The notes under the pieces: generated by a model | Seen by the model: only the letters and a program-made list of their open reading frames with translations | Databases searched by the model: none | What the model was told of the DNA's origin: nothing | In this document: positions 26,364 through 34,100 of the stretch, one piece after another | Numbering within the stretch: position 1 is the stretch's first letter | How the letters are laid out: the number at the start of each line of letters is the position of its first letter | Assembly: GCA_973895155.1 (NCBI GenBank) | Contig: OZ316892.1 | Location: 14,190,861 to 14,254,860, forward strand | Length of the DNA: 64,000 bases | Reading direction: 5' to 3' | Source: Marsupella aquatica | Lineage: Eukaryota > Plantae > Marchantiophyta | Made by a program: the position numbers and the translations under genes

Positions 26364-29170
26364 TTAGGTTGGAACGACAGAGAGATGATGCCTTGCCAGC
26401 AGGAGAACATGCTTCGCTATTTGGTTTGAAGCATCAGGCGTTGCAGCTTTCACAGTCCTTCCTGTCATTGTCATCAGCATTTGTGGGTCTCCTGTATAGC
26501 GACAAAAAAGTAGTTATGCCCATAGGGGATCATGAAAAAGCGGAATCCGGCTCTGAACAAGGACAATTTGATTTGAAATTGACTTCTACCTACCTAATCC
26601 TAGTGATGCCTTTTGGCTTTTTTAAGGGACTGAACCAAAGCAATGTCCAAATTCTCTACGATACAATTTCAATGCCTGGTATCATGTGCCTGGTATCATG
26701 TCCCAATTACTCAGAGAGCATAAATTATTTTTATTCATTCACTTCAGGTTGTCGTTTTGTTAGAATGCAGTAATTAGAAGCAGTACACCAAACTCATTTC
26801 ATGCAGAGATGCTAATGAGAGAACGAATAATTTGCTTCATTAAAGTTAAATTATTTGGGGGAGAGAGAAACAAATGGTCATTTATGCAGTGTGTAGAGAA
26901 TCATACCGAGCAACTCATTTATTGAAGTTGCAAGTACTGAAGAATCGAGGGAGCTCTCCAACAGAACTTTGGCAGCCCCTTGTTCTGCCATGGCTACCGC
27001 ATTCTTGGTTTGATGATCCTCAGCGACATTTGTGGAGGGAATCTGTGTTCCAAAAGGTTACTTCAGCTGGCCAGACGTAGTCCTTATCTGCAACTTAATG
27101 CCATGTCCTCATTTTCACCTCATAAAATAGTTTCTGCACATAAGTTCACAGGCAAATGCGAATAATAATCAAGGAGAATACCAGAATTGAAGGTTTGCCG
27201 GTGACTAGCAACTCGCTACAAGTGATCGCCCCTGCTCGAGCAACGACCAAATCTGCAGCTGCATATGCCAGGTGCATAGCATTCACAAACCTGTATATTA
27301 CATTGACATTGGATCACGATGATGATTCATTTGCAGATTCCAAACGGGAAAAACTTCTCATATACTAAACTAACACTGGAAGCCGTTATAATAGACTACG
27401 AGTGACCCGAACTGCTAAGAATATCTGCACTACTGTAAGAACTAAGTGAAAACGTTCTTCGATGCATAGTAATAACGATTCATAGACCACACCCATCACC
27501 TAATCTAATGATACATAACACCATAAGAGGAAGAACTTATCTACCGTTCAGACAACATTCTGAATATAACTAGGGTAGATTTGAATTAAATCCAGGAATC
27601 ATTTTTTGTCATAATTGTGCAGTGGCAACTCATGCATGAACCTCTTCCATGCCAAAGCAAAATCGCAAGGAGTTACTCTGAAGTGGTTCTCATACGGAAA
27701 TACTGCCAGGCGAGGATGACTGCCGACTTGAGCCATAATCTCTTCGTAGTATGTAGCTCCTGTCTGCCATATGACATATCTTGTAGGATTCTCTTCCAGC
27801 ATGGCGGCCACCATACCTGCTGCAGCTCTGTTGACAGACTGTGCCCCTAGAGATCCCCCCAAGATCAACAAGACTTCCTTCCTCATTTTCACCGAAACTG
27901 TTGGACTGGATTCTCTAATAGTTCTGCTCTGGGGATCGTCAGGATCCTTACTTTGTGCCCTCTTCTCTCGATCTTGGTCCTGAGGAAAGAAGAAGCGTCG
28001 GGCTACTGTAGCAGAAATATCCTTCCGGAGCTCTGCCCTCGTGGGATTTCCACATAACACACATTTGTCCTTAGGAAAGTATGGTAGGGCAGCAGAAAAG
28101 GCTACGAAAACAGCGTTTGCAACCATCCCTAAAATCCGATTAGTCACTCCTGCGTATGCATTCTGCTCTTGAATGACAACAGGGTATCCCATCATAGCTG
28201 CCAAGAGGCACACTGGACCAGAGACATACCCCCCAGTTCCAACGACCACGTGGGGCCTCACTTGGCGGAGCAGGTTCCATGAGGCGAACAATGCCCTCAA
28301 GAGCTTTGCAGGCAGCTGCAAGTTCTCAAAGGACATGAAAGGACGGCGAATGGCTACAGCAGGGATCGGCCTGATATGGAATCCAGCTCTCGGCACGGCC
28401 GACCATTCCATTCTATCCTGTGTGCCGACAAACTCCACTTCCACCGCATCACCCGAAAGCCTCCGAATTTCGTCTGCTATGGCTATCGCTGGATACACAT
28501 GTCCTCCTGTCCCACCTGCTGCCATTAGAACTTTCAATCGTTCCTGGCCTCCTCCTGCCTTTGCTCCATTTGACTTCACCTCTGCTGCTTCAATTTCAGA
28601 GCTCTCCCACTTCGCAGAAACATTTTGCCAGTGGTTGGACAAGCATCCCCGCCTGGCTACCCGAACCCGTCTCAACCCTGCTCGCCGACGAATAATTATT
28701 GGGACCAGAAGGACTGCACATCATCAGCACAACAGAATTATTTGAGCCCTGCACTCGTTTTCCAAAATTTGTCTGTCGTCACCAATCAATATGGATTCGC
28801 CTGGTTCCAGTATCATACAAAAACGTTGTTTTGGGGATCTCAAAAAAAATCAGTGATGGAGGAAACACAGTCCCTTCCAGTTTATAGTGAGGCATCTCGA
28901 CTGGAATACCATGCCACTTTACACTACAGTCTAGACAGAGTTGGAATATATTTGAGTTGGATGAGACTCCCCTGTGCAACCTTGAGATAGTTATGTTCTC
29001 AACAAATTAATGATACAATTCAACGACAATGCAATTCCGAAATGGGTGCGAAGAATTAGCCACGGATAAAAGAAAGCTGTCGAAGGCAAATCAGGTCGAG
29101 AAATCCTGCCTGGGAAGTGATGATGCTCTACAGTTGGAACCCAAGCAGCCGCTTGGACGAGAAGCTCCAT
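26364..29170 (-). CDS. murG: MurG, UDP-GlcNAc:lipid I N-acetylglucosaminyltransferase (GT28), probably plastid-targeted
   Basis: Exons 28713-27696 (GGTGGHVYPA, GTGGYVSGP, IQEQN, GNPTR, GGSLGA), 27290-27182 (AYAAADLVVARAGAITCSELLVTGKPSIL), 27042-26907 (IPSTNVAEDHQTKNA) and 26491-26364 (stop TAA). The first exon/ATG is uncertain; candidate ATG at 29170 (MELLVQAAAW...) with a possible GC donor. Confidence 0.93.
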
Positions 29171-29567
29171 ACTGGAGCTCACAATTTTGTCGCTGGCATT
29201 TTGTCGTTGACTCGGAGCACTGGTAAGATCTACTAACTTGATACTAGCACTACGTAAAGCCCGCTATAGTGTACATACAGTCGATACTGCAGGGACTCCT
29301 TGTTTCTGAAGGATGTTGGCCGCACTTCCTGGTCCGTTGCGATTCTGCAAGTACTTGTGAATATTCTCGTTGCAGTTTTTAATGCGTTGTGTATGATTTG
29401 TCTCTTAGTGCTTTGTGGAGAAGAAGGAAGAGGGCATGAGACAGATCGCAAGACGAACATGCAGTGGGAAAAGGAGTGGTGGTCGAAGAGTGGATACAGT
29501 AATGTCGATGAACCCGTCACACCCCACCAGGTCAAATCGCTCCCCAACGCAAAACTATTCTCACAAT

Positions 29568-29907
29568 TAGTGTCCGGTTCGGGGTCAGTCAGGGTCGGGC
29601 CGGGGTGTGGGACCCCGACAAATGACATTTGTCACACCCGGTTGTCCCGGCCCCGGCCCGCCCACACCCCGGCCCGACCCTGACCGACCCCGAACCGGGG
29701 GGCCAGCTCGCTAAACCGGGGGAGTCCGGGACCGGGACCGGGCCCGGAGGGGTTCGGGATGGGTTGGGAGGGGGTCGGGAAAGTTCGGGACAGGGGGCCG
29801 GGAGAGGGTTAGGAAAGTTTGGGGCCGGCCGGGGAATATCGGCGAATATTACAAGTTGTTGTGTCCAACAATACGACAACTTGTCCCACAGTTCAAACCG
29901 GGAGCTA
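29568..29907. mobile_element. GC-rich MITE/foldback-like insertion upstream of murG
   Basis: 38-bp inverted repeat with one mismatch (29574-29611 / 29661-29698), a second hairpin ACAAGTTGTTGT/ACGACAACTTGT, and imperfect terminal inverted repeats TAGTGTCCGGTT / AACCGGGAGCTA. Far more GC-rich than its flanks. Confidence 0.6.
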
Positions 29908-29911
29908 ACAT

Positions 29912-30033
29912 TGTAAGTGAACCACACTCAACACACATGGAGGTAGGCGTGAAGGGCCTGTAGCTTAGTGGTAGGGGTACACTCGAGGTACTAGGTTCAA
30001 TTACTAGGAGGTATTGTATAAAGCAAGCAAACA
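29912..30033 (+). mobile_element. tRNA-like LTR copy (solo LTR or 5' LTR of a TRIM)
   Basis: Starts TGTAAGTGAACCACACTC and shares TGAACCACACTC, GGCCTGTAG and GTACAC..GAGGT.CT.GGTTCAATT.CTAG with the LTR at 31072. A-box TAGCTTAGTGG and B-box GGTTCAATT. The 3' end is uncertain. Confidence 0.65.
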
Positions 30034-30711
30034 CAATTTTGATAGTAATTAAGGAGAATGATGTTGTTGTTTCAAATTCTTTTGATTTTTGCTGCCTAAT
30101 AAATTTAGTGTTTTCTTTTACAACTCTAGCAAGCCAAAAGAGGAGTCCCAAAAATGGATGTTACCAACCAGGTTGTTGTTTGCAAGGCACTTGGATATTA
30201 AGAAGGGGGTCATGTAAGTAAAAGTTTGCTCATGTGAGAGATTTTTTATTGTTTCCTTGCATGCTACAATGACCCCAATTCCTAGTCAGTCCATCCTATT
30301 CCATGACAATTCTGAAGCTGCTATATGGTGAATCCAACTCTCATGTTTTGTCTTATTCATATTTGTGTATCATGAATTTTTATTTGAATGTACCTAACAA
30401 GGGGCATCCTTTGTATCACATAGACTTTTAATTCATTTTTGGACCCCTTTAAATTTTTGGTATCCTATAGTATTTTGAATTTATTTTGGCAACCCCCTTA
30501 ATTTTTAAACTTTGTTAAGTCCTAGAGAGAAACTAAGGGCTTCACTTTCTACGCTTTTAAATATACTCATGAGTGAGAGGAACGATTCTAAGTAATGTCA
30601 GCACATCCTCTCTTAAGCTCTCCTTGTGGCTTTCTTTCCTAAGTTTATGGTTTTTATTAAAATAAGAGTCATTAATAAGACACATTGAATATGTGCACCA
30701 GTCTTAGCATC

Positions 30712-30900
30712 TTTGTGTCATAAAATCTTTGTGTCATAAAATTGTACTTTCCATTGGTCACTATGTGCTTTTATTGCATGTGCTTTATTTATATTATTTG
30801 ATTGCATTGTGTACAACTCGTAGCAACTTTGTGTAATAAAATTGTACTTTCCATTGGTCACTATGTGCCATGTACTTTATTTATATTATTTGATTTCATT
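30712..30900. repeat. ~100-bp direct duplication
   Basis: TTTGTGT.ATAAAATTGTACTTTCCATTGGTCACTATGTGC at ~30728 and ~30828. Confidence 0.8.
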
Positions 30901-30989
30901 CACATTTAATATGTATTCTAGTCTTACTCTTTAATTTTGTCCACTTAATATCACTACAAGACAAAAAGTAAACCATGTTCCAGGATGAG

Positions 30990-31181
30990 CATGCTATATT
31001 GAAAGTTCCAACATGGTATCAGAGCCAAAAATCAGGAATTTCTATTGAAGCGAGTGTGGCTAAAGGGAGGGTGCTAGACCTGAACCACACTCGGACTGAC
31101 AGGCCTGTAGGAGCACTACAACGTACACCGGAGGTCCTTGGTTCAATTCCTAGTCCATCCATGCTGTTAAAAGTTCCAACA
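30990..31181 (+). mobile_element. Terminal-repeat retrotransposon in miniature (TRIM): LTR end + PBS + 36-bp spacer + PPT + complete tRNA-like 3' LTR
   Basis: LTR 3' end CATGCT...AAAGTTCCAACA (30990-31013) is repeated at 31160-31181. PBS TGGTATCAGAGC (31014-31025) is complementary to the 3' end of initiator tRNA-Met. PPT AAAGGGAGGG (31062-31071). LTR 31072-31181 begins TG, ends CA and contains GGTTCAATTCC. Confidence 0.85.
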
Positions 31182-34100
31182 AACATGCCAAAATTGGCTG
31201 CAAAGACTCTCCCACGATTCTGAGGTAGTCAGGATGTCATGATACTCAGCACGAGCTTCTTCAGCTGCAAGGGCCACTAACCTCGTGAGGAGGGTCGACT
31301 TCCATGCAAACCAAAATAATGGAGCTGGATGATGCGGCATCTTCTCCCTACCTCATCGAGACTGCCAAAGCCGGTAAGCTAGCAAGCATCAATGTTGGTC
31401 CATCCAGTGCCACCCTCGTCCATCAAGACTCGCCTCAACTAAGGGGTCTCAAACATCAAAGTTTGGCCCTTTGTGCCCCCTTGATTGGGTCTTTTTGTTT
31501 TGCCTCTGGAATCATGTCTTGGCTCATTTACCTCTACTATCATGGCTCTGCGTTGGGGGCCTTTTGTTTTTCTGCATTTAAAATACTATCAAAATTTGAT
31601 GTACTTTAACCTAGTAGTTAAGGTTACTGCCAGAAAATAAAAGTTATCTACTACCAAATTCACTGATCCAAAATTTCCAAAAAAAGTTATGTACTACCAA
31701 ATCCATGATCCATAACTTTTGCCGTACAGATTGCAACACAGATTGGTCATATGCCGTACCAAATTCATGATCCATGAGTTTTTGCCATAAAGATTGGTCT
31801 GATGCCATGACCAAAAGTCACTCTAGAGGCTAGTGAAGAGAAAAACATTTTTACACAACCTTGTGAAAAAGCTATAGCCATTTGTTTATGACCAAAAGTC
31901 ATTATCCGTGAATATTAAGCTTTGAGACACCCTACTAGTGCACCACAAAATCTGCCTTGCAAGCCTTGGCACCCTGGGATCTGTGAAACATTCAATCTGG
32001 ATTTGTTTGTGACAGAAGCAGTCAAACTCTAAAACATGATGCTTGGCTAACCCACCTGCTCAACCGTTAGTCGCACACTAAAATCTGATGCTTTGCTACC
32101 CCAACCTAATTTTTCTTTGACAGTTATTGAACTTAAAGTGTCCCTCATTGGGGTATAAAATGTGTCTCGTTGGGGTTTTTCATGTGCCTTATTGATGTTT
32201 ATGCATATTTCCTGTGAGTTTGGGGGTTTCTTTTGACAGTGACTGAACTTGAAATGTGCCTTATTGGGGTTTATACATATTTCCTGTGAATTTGAAATTT
32301 CACTATACCCCCTAATGTATTAATAAACACAATTTTATTCTTCTGTTTCACTTTTATGGGTTTGATGCTCATGAGGCCCACCACTTAATCCTGTAAAACC
32401 CTCACAGTTTATCATAGAGGCTGGATCTGGCATTCCAATGATCACACTCAGTCTTCCTAAACCACCTAACAGAAGTTACTCAGAAGTTTTCATAAGGAGA
32501 TTCAAATACATATTTATTTAGTATTGCCCATAATGCCCTCAAACAGGGCATTAATACACTTTAATGCCTAAGAGGTTTTTATATTTAGTAAAAGTAGAAA
32601 ACATTTTTCATAATGCCCCCATCCAAACCTGGACGATGCATTCTTCTCCTTGGATGACACATATGCAACCACCCAATTGCATGAGATTCATGTGCATCGT
32701 GAGGATGGGTGAATTTTGAATAGTCTTATTAGGAGATACAGTAGTCACAAATATAATTACAATAAGATATTGATATGCTAGACAAATTTAAATCAAATGC
32801 ACATAGAAGAAAAGTTTTAAGCCAAACAAATACATTTATCCACTTCAGGGGTAGAGGTGGTTGTCTAGAAATTGGGTTTCTTCAATAAAACCAACTTTAA
32901 ACAAATTTAAACTATTTAAAAATCAGAGCACTAGGTGTTTTTACCAGACTTACCAAACTACACTATTTTTTTTATAGAAAAGAATCTATCATTTCTGTTT
33001 AAGTTTATTCTATTGCATCTGGTGATAATTTCAAAATCAAGTATCATTTTACTACTCCTTAAAAATATGATGTAACCATGGTTAAAGGAGCCACAATTTG
33101 ATAAATGTGTTTAATAGCAACTAATGCAAAACCTTCTTCTTCACATTAACATGAGGGTAAATCTATGGTTCTTTGAAATTGAACTCTCCTTGGATCCAAA
33201 AGTTCTTAAGTTTCTCTTTGACAACAAATTTCACTCACTTTAGAGTGTGCTCAATCTTTAAGTGATCCAATCAAATGTGGTCCATTTGAGATTTCTAGAG
33301 GTGGGGACTAGCGTACCTCGGCAAAGGCTTGCCGCCTTAGAGTACATCCATGTCACACTTGCAGATTTACTTAAAGCACTAGATGTGGACCACTAGCTTA
33401 TCACACCATATTCATCTCTTAGCTTTTCCTTTTTCTCGATAATTGGGGTTTACTTTTGCTATCCAGAACTCTTTTTCCTCGATAGTTGGTGTGTGGGTAT
33501 CCAGAACTCTTTTGTTTTTACTCCATTGTACTTTATTTTGACGTGAAATATACTTGTGAACCTCCAAACAAAACGTTTTCTCTTCATCAACCAAAAGATG
33601 GATTTTCCCTTTCAATGGACCTGGAGGCCCAGCAGAGGTACCATTTAGAGTCAGGAGTTCTTATAACATGATTCACATATCATTGTTATAAGAACTCCCT
33701 ACACTCCTTATAATCAAGCCTGACACTCCTCACAATGCTTGTAAGGTGATTGGATTACTTTGAACCAAATGTTAAAGCAAGATGTTCTATGATTGTGGTG
33801 TGTCTAACCGTGTAGCCAAGTGCAGTTGACTACAATTGCCGTGTCAAGTGAACCGTTTGCCGTGCAGCTGCAACACAATATGAAGTGTCATAATTAGAAC
33901 TTGTAGACATCTTGTAGACATGGCATACACATAGTTAGAGGACTACGGCTTAAAGCAAATCGTGGCAACACAAGAAAATGTCAAGAAATAATCCTAAAAT
34001 TCTAAAAATTCTAAAAATTCCTTTGACTTTTTTTATATAATATTTACATTATCTTCAAAAAAGCAATGAGGTTGGGGAAGCTAGGGGCGCTTGCGTGCTT

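What the first reader, a model, noticed from the sequence alone, without database searches (positions are those of the whole stretch)
29912..31181. Miniature LTR retrotransposon whose LTRs are tRNA-derived (tRNA analogue of Cassandra)
Seen: at 30990-31181, an LTR end (..AAAGTTCCAACA) directly followed by the Met-tRNA PBS TGGTATCAGAGC, 36 bp of spacer, PPT AAAGGGAGGG, and a 110-bp TG..CA LTR. A second related LTR starts at 29912. The two copies have complementary deletions. Merged, they give GGCCTGTAGCTTAGTGGTAGGAGCACTACAACGTACACCGGAGGTCCTWGGTTCAATTCCTAG, with an A-box, D-stem GCTT/GAGC, B-box and T-stem CTWGG/CCTAG. Established: Cassandra TRIMs carry a 5S rRNA Pol III promoter in their LTRs, and SINEs carry tRNA heads but lack LTR/PBS/PPT. 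From memory, tRNA-LTR elements have been reported in some invertebrates (needs checking); I know of no land-plant example. Inference: a Pol III-transcribed, non-autonomous LTR family that uses a tRNA as primer and a tRNA mimic as promoter.
Basis: partly seen in the sequence, partly recalled or inferred. Interest (0 to 1): 0.8.

Follow-up and report, generated by a model that had tools for sequence, protein, structure and literature searches.

The report
Liverwort Helenus: tRNA-bearing mini retrotransposon

Summary
Real, but a known kind. Its 5' LTR is split by two later insertions (30008-30276, Mutator-like; 30313-30999, high-copy, unclassified), so 30990-30999 is not LTR. Met-type PBS, 58-bp interior, PPT and 110-bp 3' LTR are as stated. 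Contigs of two public runs show a family: 9 and 10 contigs carry an intact box A where this 3' LTR lacks it, and joints link the tRNA-like part to the PBS and interior. The host is likely a leafy liverwort (MurG 76% to Calypogeia). Pol III transcription is inferred, not shown, and this copy lacks the usual T-run terminator. Side result: a 9-bp stem loops out the PPT and LTR start; by eye the same stem occurs in Selaginella Helenus and 21 of 23 rust-fungal families, and I found no mention in print.

The parts
29907..29911 (+). left target-site duplication AACAT
   Evidence: identical to 31182-31186
29912..30007 (+). 5' LTR, piece 1 (TG start, U3-like part, tRNA-like part)
   Evidence: aligns to 31072-31153, score 49 vs shuffle maximum 28
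29961..29971 (+). box A-like motif TAGCTTAGTGG in the 5' LTR
   Evidence: fits TRGCY..YGG of Helenus; covered by tRNA profile hits
29994..30004 (+). box B-like motif in the 5' LTR, with the conserved C of the T-stem changed to A
   Evidence: the duplicate at 30277-30285 keeps the C
30008..30276 (.). nested insertion 1: Mutator-like MITE with imperfect G-rich terminal inverted repeats and a 9-bp duplication (29999-30007 / 30277-30285, 8 of 9 identical)
   Evidence: TIR score 27, reached by 15 of 2000 shuffles; ends shown; repeat depth; superfamily call inferred from TSD length and G-rich ends (own knowledge)
30286..30312 (+). 5' LTR, piece 2 (after box B)
   Evidence: 30276-30312 aligns to 31144-31168, score 34 vs shuffle maximum 26
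30313..30999 (.). nested insertion 2: high-copy repeat, unclassified, no terminal inverted repeat
   Evidence: loose ends with mixed flanks before 30313 (32, 39, 26 contigs in X1-X3) and behind 30999 (58, 77, 26, 64 in X1-X4); TIR test negative, 156 of 2000 shuffles
31000..31013 (+). 5' LTR, piece 3 (end, ..CA)
   Evidence: 12 of 12 identical to 31170-31181
31014..31025 (+). primer-binding site TGGTATCAGAGC (initiator-Met tRNA type)
   Evidence: same PBS as Cassandra; Met assignment from own knowledge
31026..31061 (+). non-coding interior (36 bp between PBS and PPT)
   Evidence: carried by many other contigs
31051..31093 (+). predicted hairpin: 31051-31059 pairs with 31085-31093 (9 Watson-Crick pairs) and encloses the PPT and LTR start
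   Evidence: family variants keep or add pairs
31062..31071 (+). polypurine tract, directly before TG
31072..31181 (+). 3' LTR, 110 bp, TG..CA; box A mostly deleted at 31110/31111; intact box B at 31140-31150
   Evidence: best box-B score of 127,980 positions in the window
31182..31186 (+). right target-site duplication AACAT

Best explanation
This is a single decayed copy of a Helenus-type miniature LTR retrotransposon (TRIM) in what is likely a leafy liverwort: a gene-less element with two tRNA-like LTRs, a PBS, a PPT and a 5-bp target duplication, whose intact relatives would be transcribed by RNA polymerase III from box A and box B in the 5' LTR and likely copied and inserted by the enzymes of an autonomous Copia-type element. 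Shown: LTR-PBS-interior-PPT-LTR layout, TSD, a multi-copy family, intact box A in other copies, later disruption of this copy's 5' LTR by two insertions. Inferred: Pol III transcription (from motifs and by analogy with Cassandra); priming by host initiator-Met tRNA at the PBS, not by the element's own tRNA-like part; a Copia helper (5-bp TSD, TG..CA ends, Met PBS; Gypsy not excluded); birth by a tRNA or tRNA-SINE piece entering a TRIM LTR. The tRNA-like part works as a promoter, not as a tRNA: it has no anticodon stem or acceptor stem here. This copy is predicted dead: damaged box B and two insertions in the 5' LTR, box A lost from the 3' LTR.
For: TSD AACAT at both ends. Both junctions are spanned by exact-match contigs in runs of two studies (left: X1, X2, X3, X4; right: X1, X2, X4), so it is not an assembly artefact, though the best run may be this window's source. 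On 31000-31215, 53 (X1) and 81 (X2) contigs were laid, mostly under 90% alike. Loose letters before 31111 end in an intact box A in 9 and 10 contigs. Joints 31167>31000, 31173>31006 and 31153>31000 put the tRNA-like part in front of the LTR end and PBS; 31059>31111 and 31075>31130 put interior and LTR start in front of it; flanks behind 31181 are mixed (4 and 7 contigs, agreement 0.50, 0.46). Joints 29973>30997 and 29974>31004 in all four runs show box-A LTRs running to the PBS without the insertions. With a profile of 17 tRNAs not selected by the element's motif, the two LTRs rank first and second in 64 kb; same ranking with all 26. Layout, motifs and TSD length match Helenus-1_SMo. Host: MurG 76% identical to Calypogeia fissa, 57-61% to Marchantia and Riccia.
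Against: The tRNA match of each LTR alone is statistically weak (E 0.061 and 0.3 with the unbiased profile; no ARAGORN or Rfam tRNA hit). No run of four T lies in either LTR or the interior on the + strand; the first is at 31492, whereas most Helenus LTRs in the supplement parts I saw have one after box B (by eye), so termination is unexplained. The two LTRs differ by 9 of 73 aligned bases plus several indels, more than a young insertion would. No full-length second copy could be read as sequence: the family evidence is contig fragments, and each joint rests on one contig per run with 21-57 letters on its short side, which the tool flags as less reliable at 80% likeness. No helper element and no transcript were found.
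Confidence: 0.85

Rival explanations
1. A TRIM family that carries the tRNA-like piece as a passenger (an old SINE or tRNA fragment fixed in the LTR) but is transcribed by Pol II or by read-through from neighbours.
For: No T-run terminator in this copy; Pol III activity is unvalidated for any Helenus (Kojima's own caveat).
Against: Box A and box B are the kept parts while the anticodon arm is degenerate; no variant at 5% or more is listed over 31111-31155; the roughly 40-50 bp upstream of the tRNA-like part leaves little room for a Pol II promoter.
Confidence: 0.1
2. Chance assembly: two unrelated fragments (a tRNA-SINE remnant at 29912 and a one-LTR piece at 31000-31181) that happen to sit 1.1 kb apart, with a coincidental 5-bp match.
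For: The two LTRs differ by indels and 12% substitutions; a related composite over 29856-30156 (20 other letters, 36 gap letters) is seen in X2 and X4, so rearrangement here is possible.
Against: Three colinear LTR pieces in the right order around two insertions, a 9-bp duplication inside the LTR at the first insertion, an exact TSD at the TG and CA ends (p about 0.001), and contigs that join box A to the PBS without the insertions.
Confidence: 0.04
3. A self-priming or ribozyme-bearing element (the LTR's tRNA mimic supplies the primer, or a ribozyme makes RNA circles as in retrozymes).
For: Earlier AI notes on other genomes suggest such variants (untested leads).
Against: The PBS is the canonical 12-mer that host tRNA matches; only 28 nt follow the T-stem in the 3' LTR; no Rfam ribozyme hit; Kojima found no LTR-PBS complementarity in Helenus.
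Confidence: 0.01

Closest known systems
Helenus-1_SMo, Selaginella moellendorffii (Kojima 2024, PMC10886601; read parts 1-4 and 6 of 6 of the text, supplement passages and parts 2 and 8 of 11)
   Same: TRIM with tRNA-like LTR of about 110-140 bp, very short interior, Met-type PBS, 5-bp TSD. By eye: same box A into GAGCAC stretch as the family here, same GGAGGTCCT-GGTTCAAT box B region, LTR end TTCCAACA, similar start (TG.TAGA.C then CTGAAC and CACAC), and a stem of about 19 pairs enclosing PPT and LTR start.
   Different: Host likely a leafy liverwort, not a lycophyte; interior 58 vs 85 bp and mostly unalignable by eye; Selaginella keeps a paired acceptor stem and a T4 run before the LTR end, this copy has neither; this copy is decayed. 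No computed alignment was made, so shared ancestry is open.
Helenus of rust fungi (Pucciniales; Copia-dependent; Kojima 2024)
   Same: tRNA-like LTR with box A/B, 5-bp TSD, short interior; by eye a stem around PPT and LTR start in 21 of 23 families shown.
   Different: Most use anticodon-loop priming; unrelated LTR and interior sequence; T-run after the tRNA-like part.
Cassandra TRIM (Kalendar et al., PMC7215508, passages read)
   Same: Plant TRIM with a Pol III promoter in the LTR and the same PBS 12-mer.
   Different: Promoter is 5S rRNA-derived (box A/C), not tRNA-derived; transcription is validated for Cassandra only.
tRNA-derived SINEs (SINE2)
   Same: Box A/box B internal promoter.
   Different: SINEs lack paired TG..CA repeats, PBS and PPT, all present here.

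Membership tests
Helenus (TRIM with tRNA-derived LTR) | Two LTRs with PBS and PPT between them | tested here: met
Helenus (TRIM with tRNA-derived LTR) | Shorter than about 1000 bp and non-coding | tested here: met
   LTR pieces 96+27+14, interior 58, 3' LTR 110 = 305 bp without the insertions (lengths); no ORF of 120 aa in 29912-31181
Helenus (TRIM with tRNA-derived LTR) | tRNA-like sequence in the LTR with box A (TRGCY, YGG) and box B (GGTTC) | tested here: met
   box A and B in the 5' LTR, box B in the 3' LTR; intact box A in 9 and 10 other contigs; top two tRNA-profile hits in the window, weak E-values
Helenus (TRIM with tRNA-derived LTR) | 5-bp TSD (plant and fungal families) | tested here: met
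   AACAT / AACAT; one locus only
Helenus (TRIM with tRNA-derived LTR) | Dispersed multi-copy family | tested here: met
   53 and 81 contigs laid, mixed flanks behind 31181; copy number not measurable with this tool
TRIMp3 (Pol III-driven TRIM) | Transcription by RNA polymerase III | not testable with these tools
   no RNA holder listed; unvalidated for Helenus in general
TRIMp3 (Pol III-driven TRIM) | Pol III terminator (T-run) in the LTR, as in Cassandra | tested here: not met
   no T4 in LTRs or interior of this copy; not part of Kojima's definition of Helenus
Same family as Helenus-1_SMo | Alignable LTR and interior sequence | tested here: inconclusive
   short shared motifs by eye outside the tRNA part; interiors differ; no computed alignment
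Cassandra | 5S rRNA-derived box A/C in the LTR | tested here: not met
   no 5S rRNA hit in Rfam scans; motifs are tRNA-type
Functional tRNA gene | Cloverleaf with acceptor and anticodon stems | tested here: not met

The most novel reading that the evidence does not exclude
Liverwort and Selaginella Helenus descend from one land-plant lineage that predates the bryophyte-vascular plant split (older than Cassandra) or moved between them, and Copia-dependent Helenus elements of plants and fungi share an undescribed cis signal: an RNA stem between the interior's 3' end and the LTR's start that loops out the polypurine tract, kept by compensatory change.
Probability: 0.3. Interest if true: 0.6.

Novelty: new member of a known kind. 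Interest (0 to 1): 0.3.

Why it matters
It would double the land-plant divisions known to host Helenus and makes the question of one ancient plant origin versus repeated capture testable. The PPT-enclosing stem, if it holds up in a computed survey, would be a candidate recognition or priming signal in the smallest LTR elements, whose dependence on helpers Kojima calls unexplained. For annotation, such LTRs are a source of false tRNA or SINE calls. The locus itself is a dead copy with no sign of host function.

Tried and rejected
No whole genome was held, so no genome-wide copy retrieval. ARAGORN on the window: 0 genes. Rfam on 29500-31500, 31072-31181 and 29912-30020: no tRNA, 5S or ribozyme hit. 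No third LTR copy in the window by BLASTN; no retroelement domain among the 33 of 43 long frames scanned against Pfam or by motif scan. Sequencing-run search: no RNA holder listed. Pattern box B + LTR end + PBS: 0 hits in metagenome contigs and prokaryote genomes; LTR end + PBS: 0 in viral contigs. A looser pattern gave 22 metagenome loci; 0 of 22 had a PBS; 13 of 22 held ARAGORN tRNA genes; none is a relative. The 26-tRNA profile is biased, since 9 members were fetched by the element's own motif; it was redone with 17. Folding the whole PBS-to-U3 stretch gave no significant stability (z -1.22 and -0.81); only the 56-nt hairpin stretch did (z -2.92, chosen after seeing the stem). No contig joint showing an empty site was among the 15 listed of 111. 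Self-priming and ribozyme readings rejected (see rivals). Literature: 'Helenus' + 'retrotransposon' gave 5 papers, 4 listed; the two later ones read by passage only cite Kojima. Searches for liverwort or bryophyte TRIMs and for a PPT-enclosing hairpin (passages) found no such report; subscription journals and Repbase/Dfam were not searchable.

Full report
Observation. The stretch 29912-30007 is related to that repeat beyond chance (local score 49; maximum 28 in 2000 shuffles, 31 in 2600 background pieces).

One element, not two copies. AACAT lies directly before the TG at 29912 and directly after the CA at 31181 (chance 0.0012). Between them the 5' LTR appears as three colinear pieces, 29912-30007, 30286-30312 and 31000-31013. 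The first gap, 30008-30276, has imperfect terminal inverted repeats (15 of 2000 shuffles reach the score) and a 9-bp duplication of LTR sequence (8 of 9 identical), which by my own knowledge is Mutator-like. The second gap, 30313-30999, is a high-copy repeat whose ends are marked by many contigs with mixed flanks; it has no inverted ends (156 of 2000 shuffles) and stays unclassified. Without the insertions the element is about 305 bp. The two LTRs match at 64 of 73 bases in four ungapped blocks and differ by several indels, so the insertion is old; I give no date. Exact-match contigs span the left junction in four runs and the right junction in three, from two studies; the best run may be the window's own source.

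A family. No genome was available, so I laid contigs of public runs on the locus. On 31000-31215, 53 and 81 contigs were laid in X1 and X2, 34 and 63 of them under 90% alike. Summed depth is about 20-55 times the flank over the PBS and interior and about 160-185 times over box B; the tool warns that this is no copy number, and box B may also catch tRNA genes or SINEs. Nine and ten contigs continue left of 31111 with an intact box A, exactly where this 3' LTR has its deletion. Joints link the tRNA-like part to the LTR end and PBS, and the interior to the tRNA-like part; others link the box-A part of the 5' LTR to the PBS without the insertions, in all four runs. Each joint is one contig per run, and the tables were cut (60 loose-end rows and 131 pieces not shown).

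tRNA likeness. ARAGORN and Rfam do not call either LTR. A profile from 26 tRNAs found in fetched loci ranks the two LTRs first and second in 64 kb (nhmmer E 0.0003 and 0.005; covariance model E 0.037 and 0.06), but 9 of these tRNAs were fetched by the element's own motif; with the other 17 the ranking holds at E 0.061 and 0.3. So each damaged LTR is weak alone; the case rests on box A and box B in register, both LTRs, and the family contigs. T-stem and D-stem motifs are present; acceptor and anticodon stems are not.

Host and setting. The neighbouring minus-strand gene (26376-28660, four aligned pieces) is MurG, 76% identical to Calypogeia fissa, 57-61% to Marchantia and Riccia, 53-54% to mosses: likely a leafy liverwort. 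The element lies about 1.2 kb upstream, among other repeats.

Mechanism. Shown: layout, TSD, family, promoter-type motifs. Inferred: Pol III starts just before box A in the 5' LTR, reads through PBS, interior, PPT and into the 3' LTR; host initiator-Met tRNA primes at the PBS; a helper's reverse transcriptase, RNase H and integrase do the rest; 5-bp TSD and Met PBS point to Copia, as Kojima argues for fungal Helenus, but do not exclude Gypsy. Against: there is no T4 run in this unit, first at 31492, while most published Helenus LTRs that I saw have one after box B (by eye). Transcripts would have to read into flanking DNA, as SINE transcripts do, or the T-run is lost only in the copies seen. 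No transcript evidence either way.

What is known. Kojima 2024 (PMC10886601; text parts 1-4 and 6 of 6; supplement passages and parts 2 and 8 of 11) defines Helenus as TRIMs with tRNA-derived LTRs in fungi, animals and one plant, Selaginella moellendorffii. All testable defining features are met. The word 'liverwort' does not occur in that paper; two later papers only cite it (passages); four searches for bryophyte TRIMs found no report (listings only). An earlier, unreviewed AI note reports an intact 332-bp Helenus elsewhere in this genome (e1-10634709); I could not test whether it is the same family, and it is not independent support. By eye, Helenus-1_SMo shares the box A and box B stretches and several short motifs outside the tRNA part; terminal motifs are generic for Copia and the tRNA part could be captured twice, so common origin is open, and the computed alignment was not done.

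An extra observation. Bases 31051-31059 pair perfectly with 31085-31093, enclosing the PPT and LTR start (22 of 20000 shuffles, 28 of 6392 window positions; z -2.92; both post hoc). In the family, the majority variant at 31062 (about 90% of depth in both runs) adds a pair and a minor variant at 31051 keeps one as G-U; the LTR arm's first 12 bases are identical in both LTRs. By eye the same geometry holds in Helenus-1_SMo (about 19 pairs) and in 21 of the 23 rust-fungal families with both parts shown, with different sequences; these families are related, so they are perhaps 7-8 independent cases, and they are a tenth of the published set. Of six wasp families looked at, one had a 9-pair stem with two G-U pairs and five had six pairs or fewer. 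This was unblinded and uncomputed. Kojima's text has no 'hairpin' or 'inverted'; four searches found no description, though the Ty1 3' region with its PPT is reported as well structured in vivo (passage) and Cassandra is modelled as a large hairpin (passage), so a generic retroelement feature is possible.

Verdict. A real, decayed Helenus-type TRIM in a likely liverwort: new member of a known kind, interest 0.3.

Noticed in passing
window 31051-31093: Stem between interior end and LTR start enclosing the PPT; seen by eye in Selaginella and most rust-fungal Helenus in the supplement; not found in print.
   Followed up: partly
window 30313-30999: High-copy 687-bp repeat with sharp ends, no terminal inverted repeats, similar GCTATAT motifs in direct orientation near both ends and an internal 100-bp duplication; other copies continue with ATAG past 30999, which would give a TC start on the minus strand (Helitron-like, inferred); unclassified.
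   Followed up: partly
window 30008-30276: Mutator-like MITE with 9-bp duplication; its middle (30132-30198) belongs to a much higher-copy family with different flanks, so it may be composite.
   Followed up: partly
window 29568-29907: GC-rich repeat family with a 38-bp, 97% inverted repeat (29574-29611 / 29661-29698) and loosely inverted ends starting TAGTG (hAT-like by recall, no TSD found); the TRIM inserted at its right edge.
   Followed up: partly
window 29856-30156: One contig in each of X2 and X4 covers flank, LTR start and MITE together with 20 other letters and 36 gap letters: a second composite copy or a diverged allele.
   Followed up: no
window 31042: Loose ends in X1 and X2 show a subfamily with a different interior 3' end before the same PPT.
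   Followed up: no
window 26376-28660 (-): Nuclear MurG gene (plastid peptidoglycan pathway), ordinary for bryophytes; other genes in the window: TORTIFOLIA1-like (39202+), F-box/LRR (46168+), SMC (53411+).
   Followed up: partly
L008:800-936 and L017:1421-1557: Pairs of tRNA-like repeats with extra letters in the anticodon region (likely intron-bearing fungal tRNA-Pro genes; ARAGORN called only the second, as Asn).
   Followed up: no
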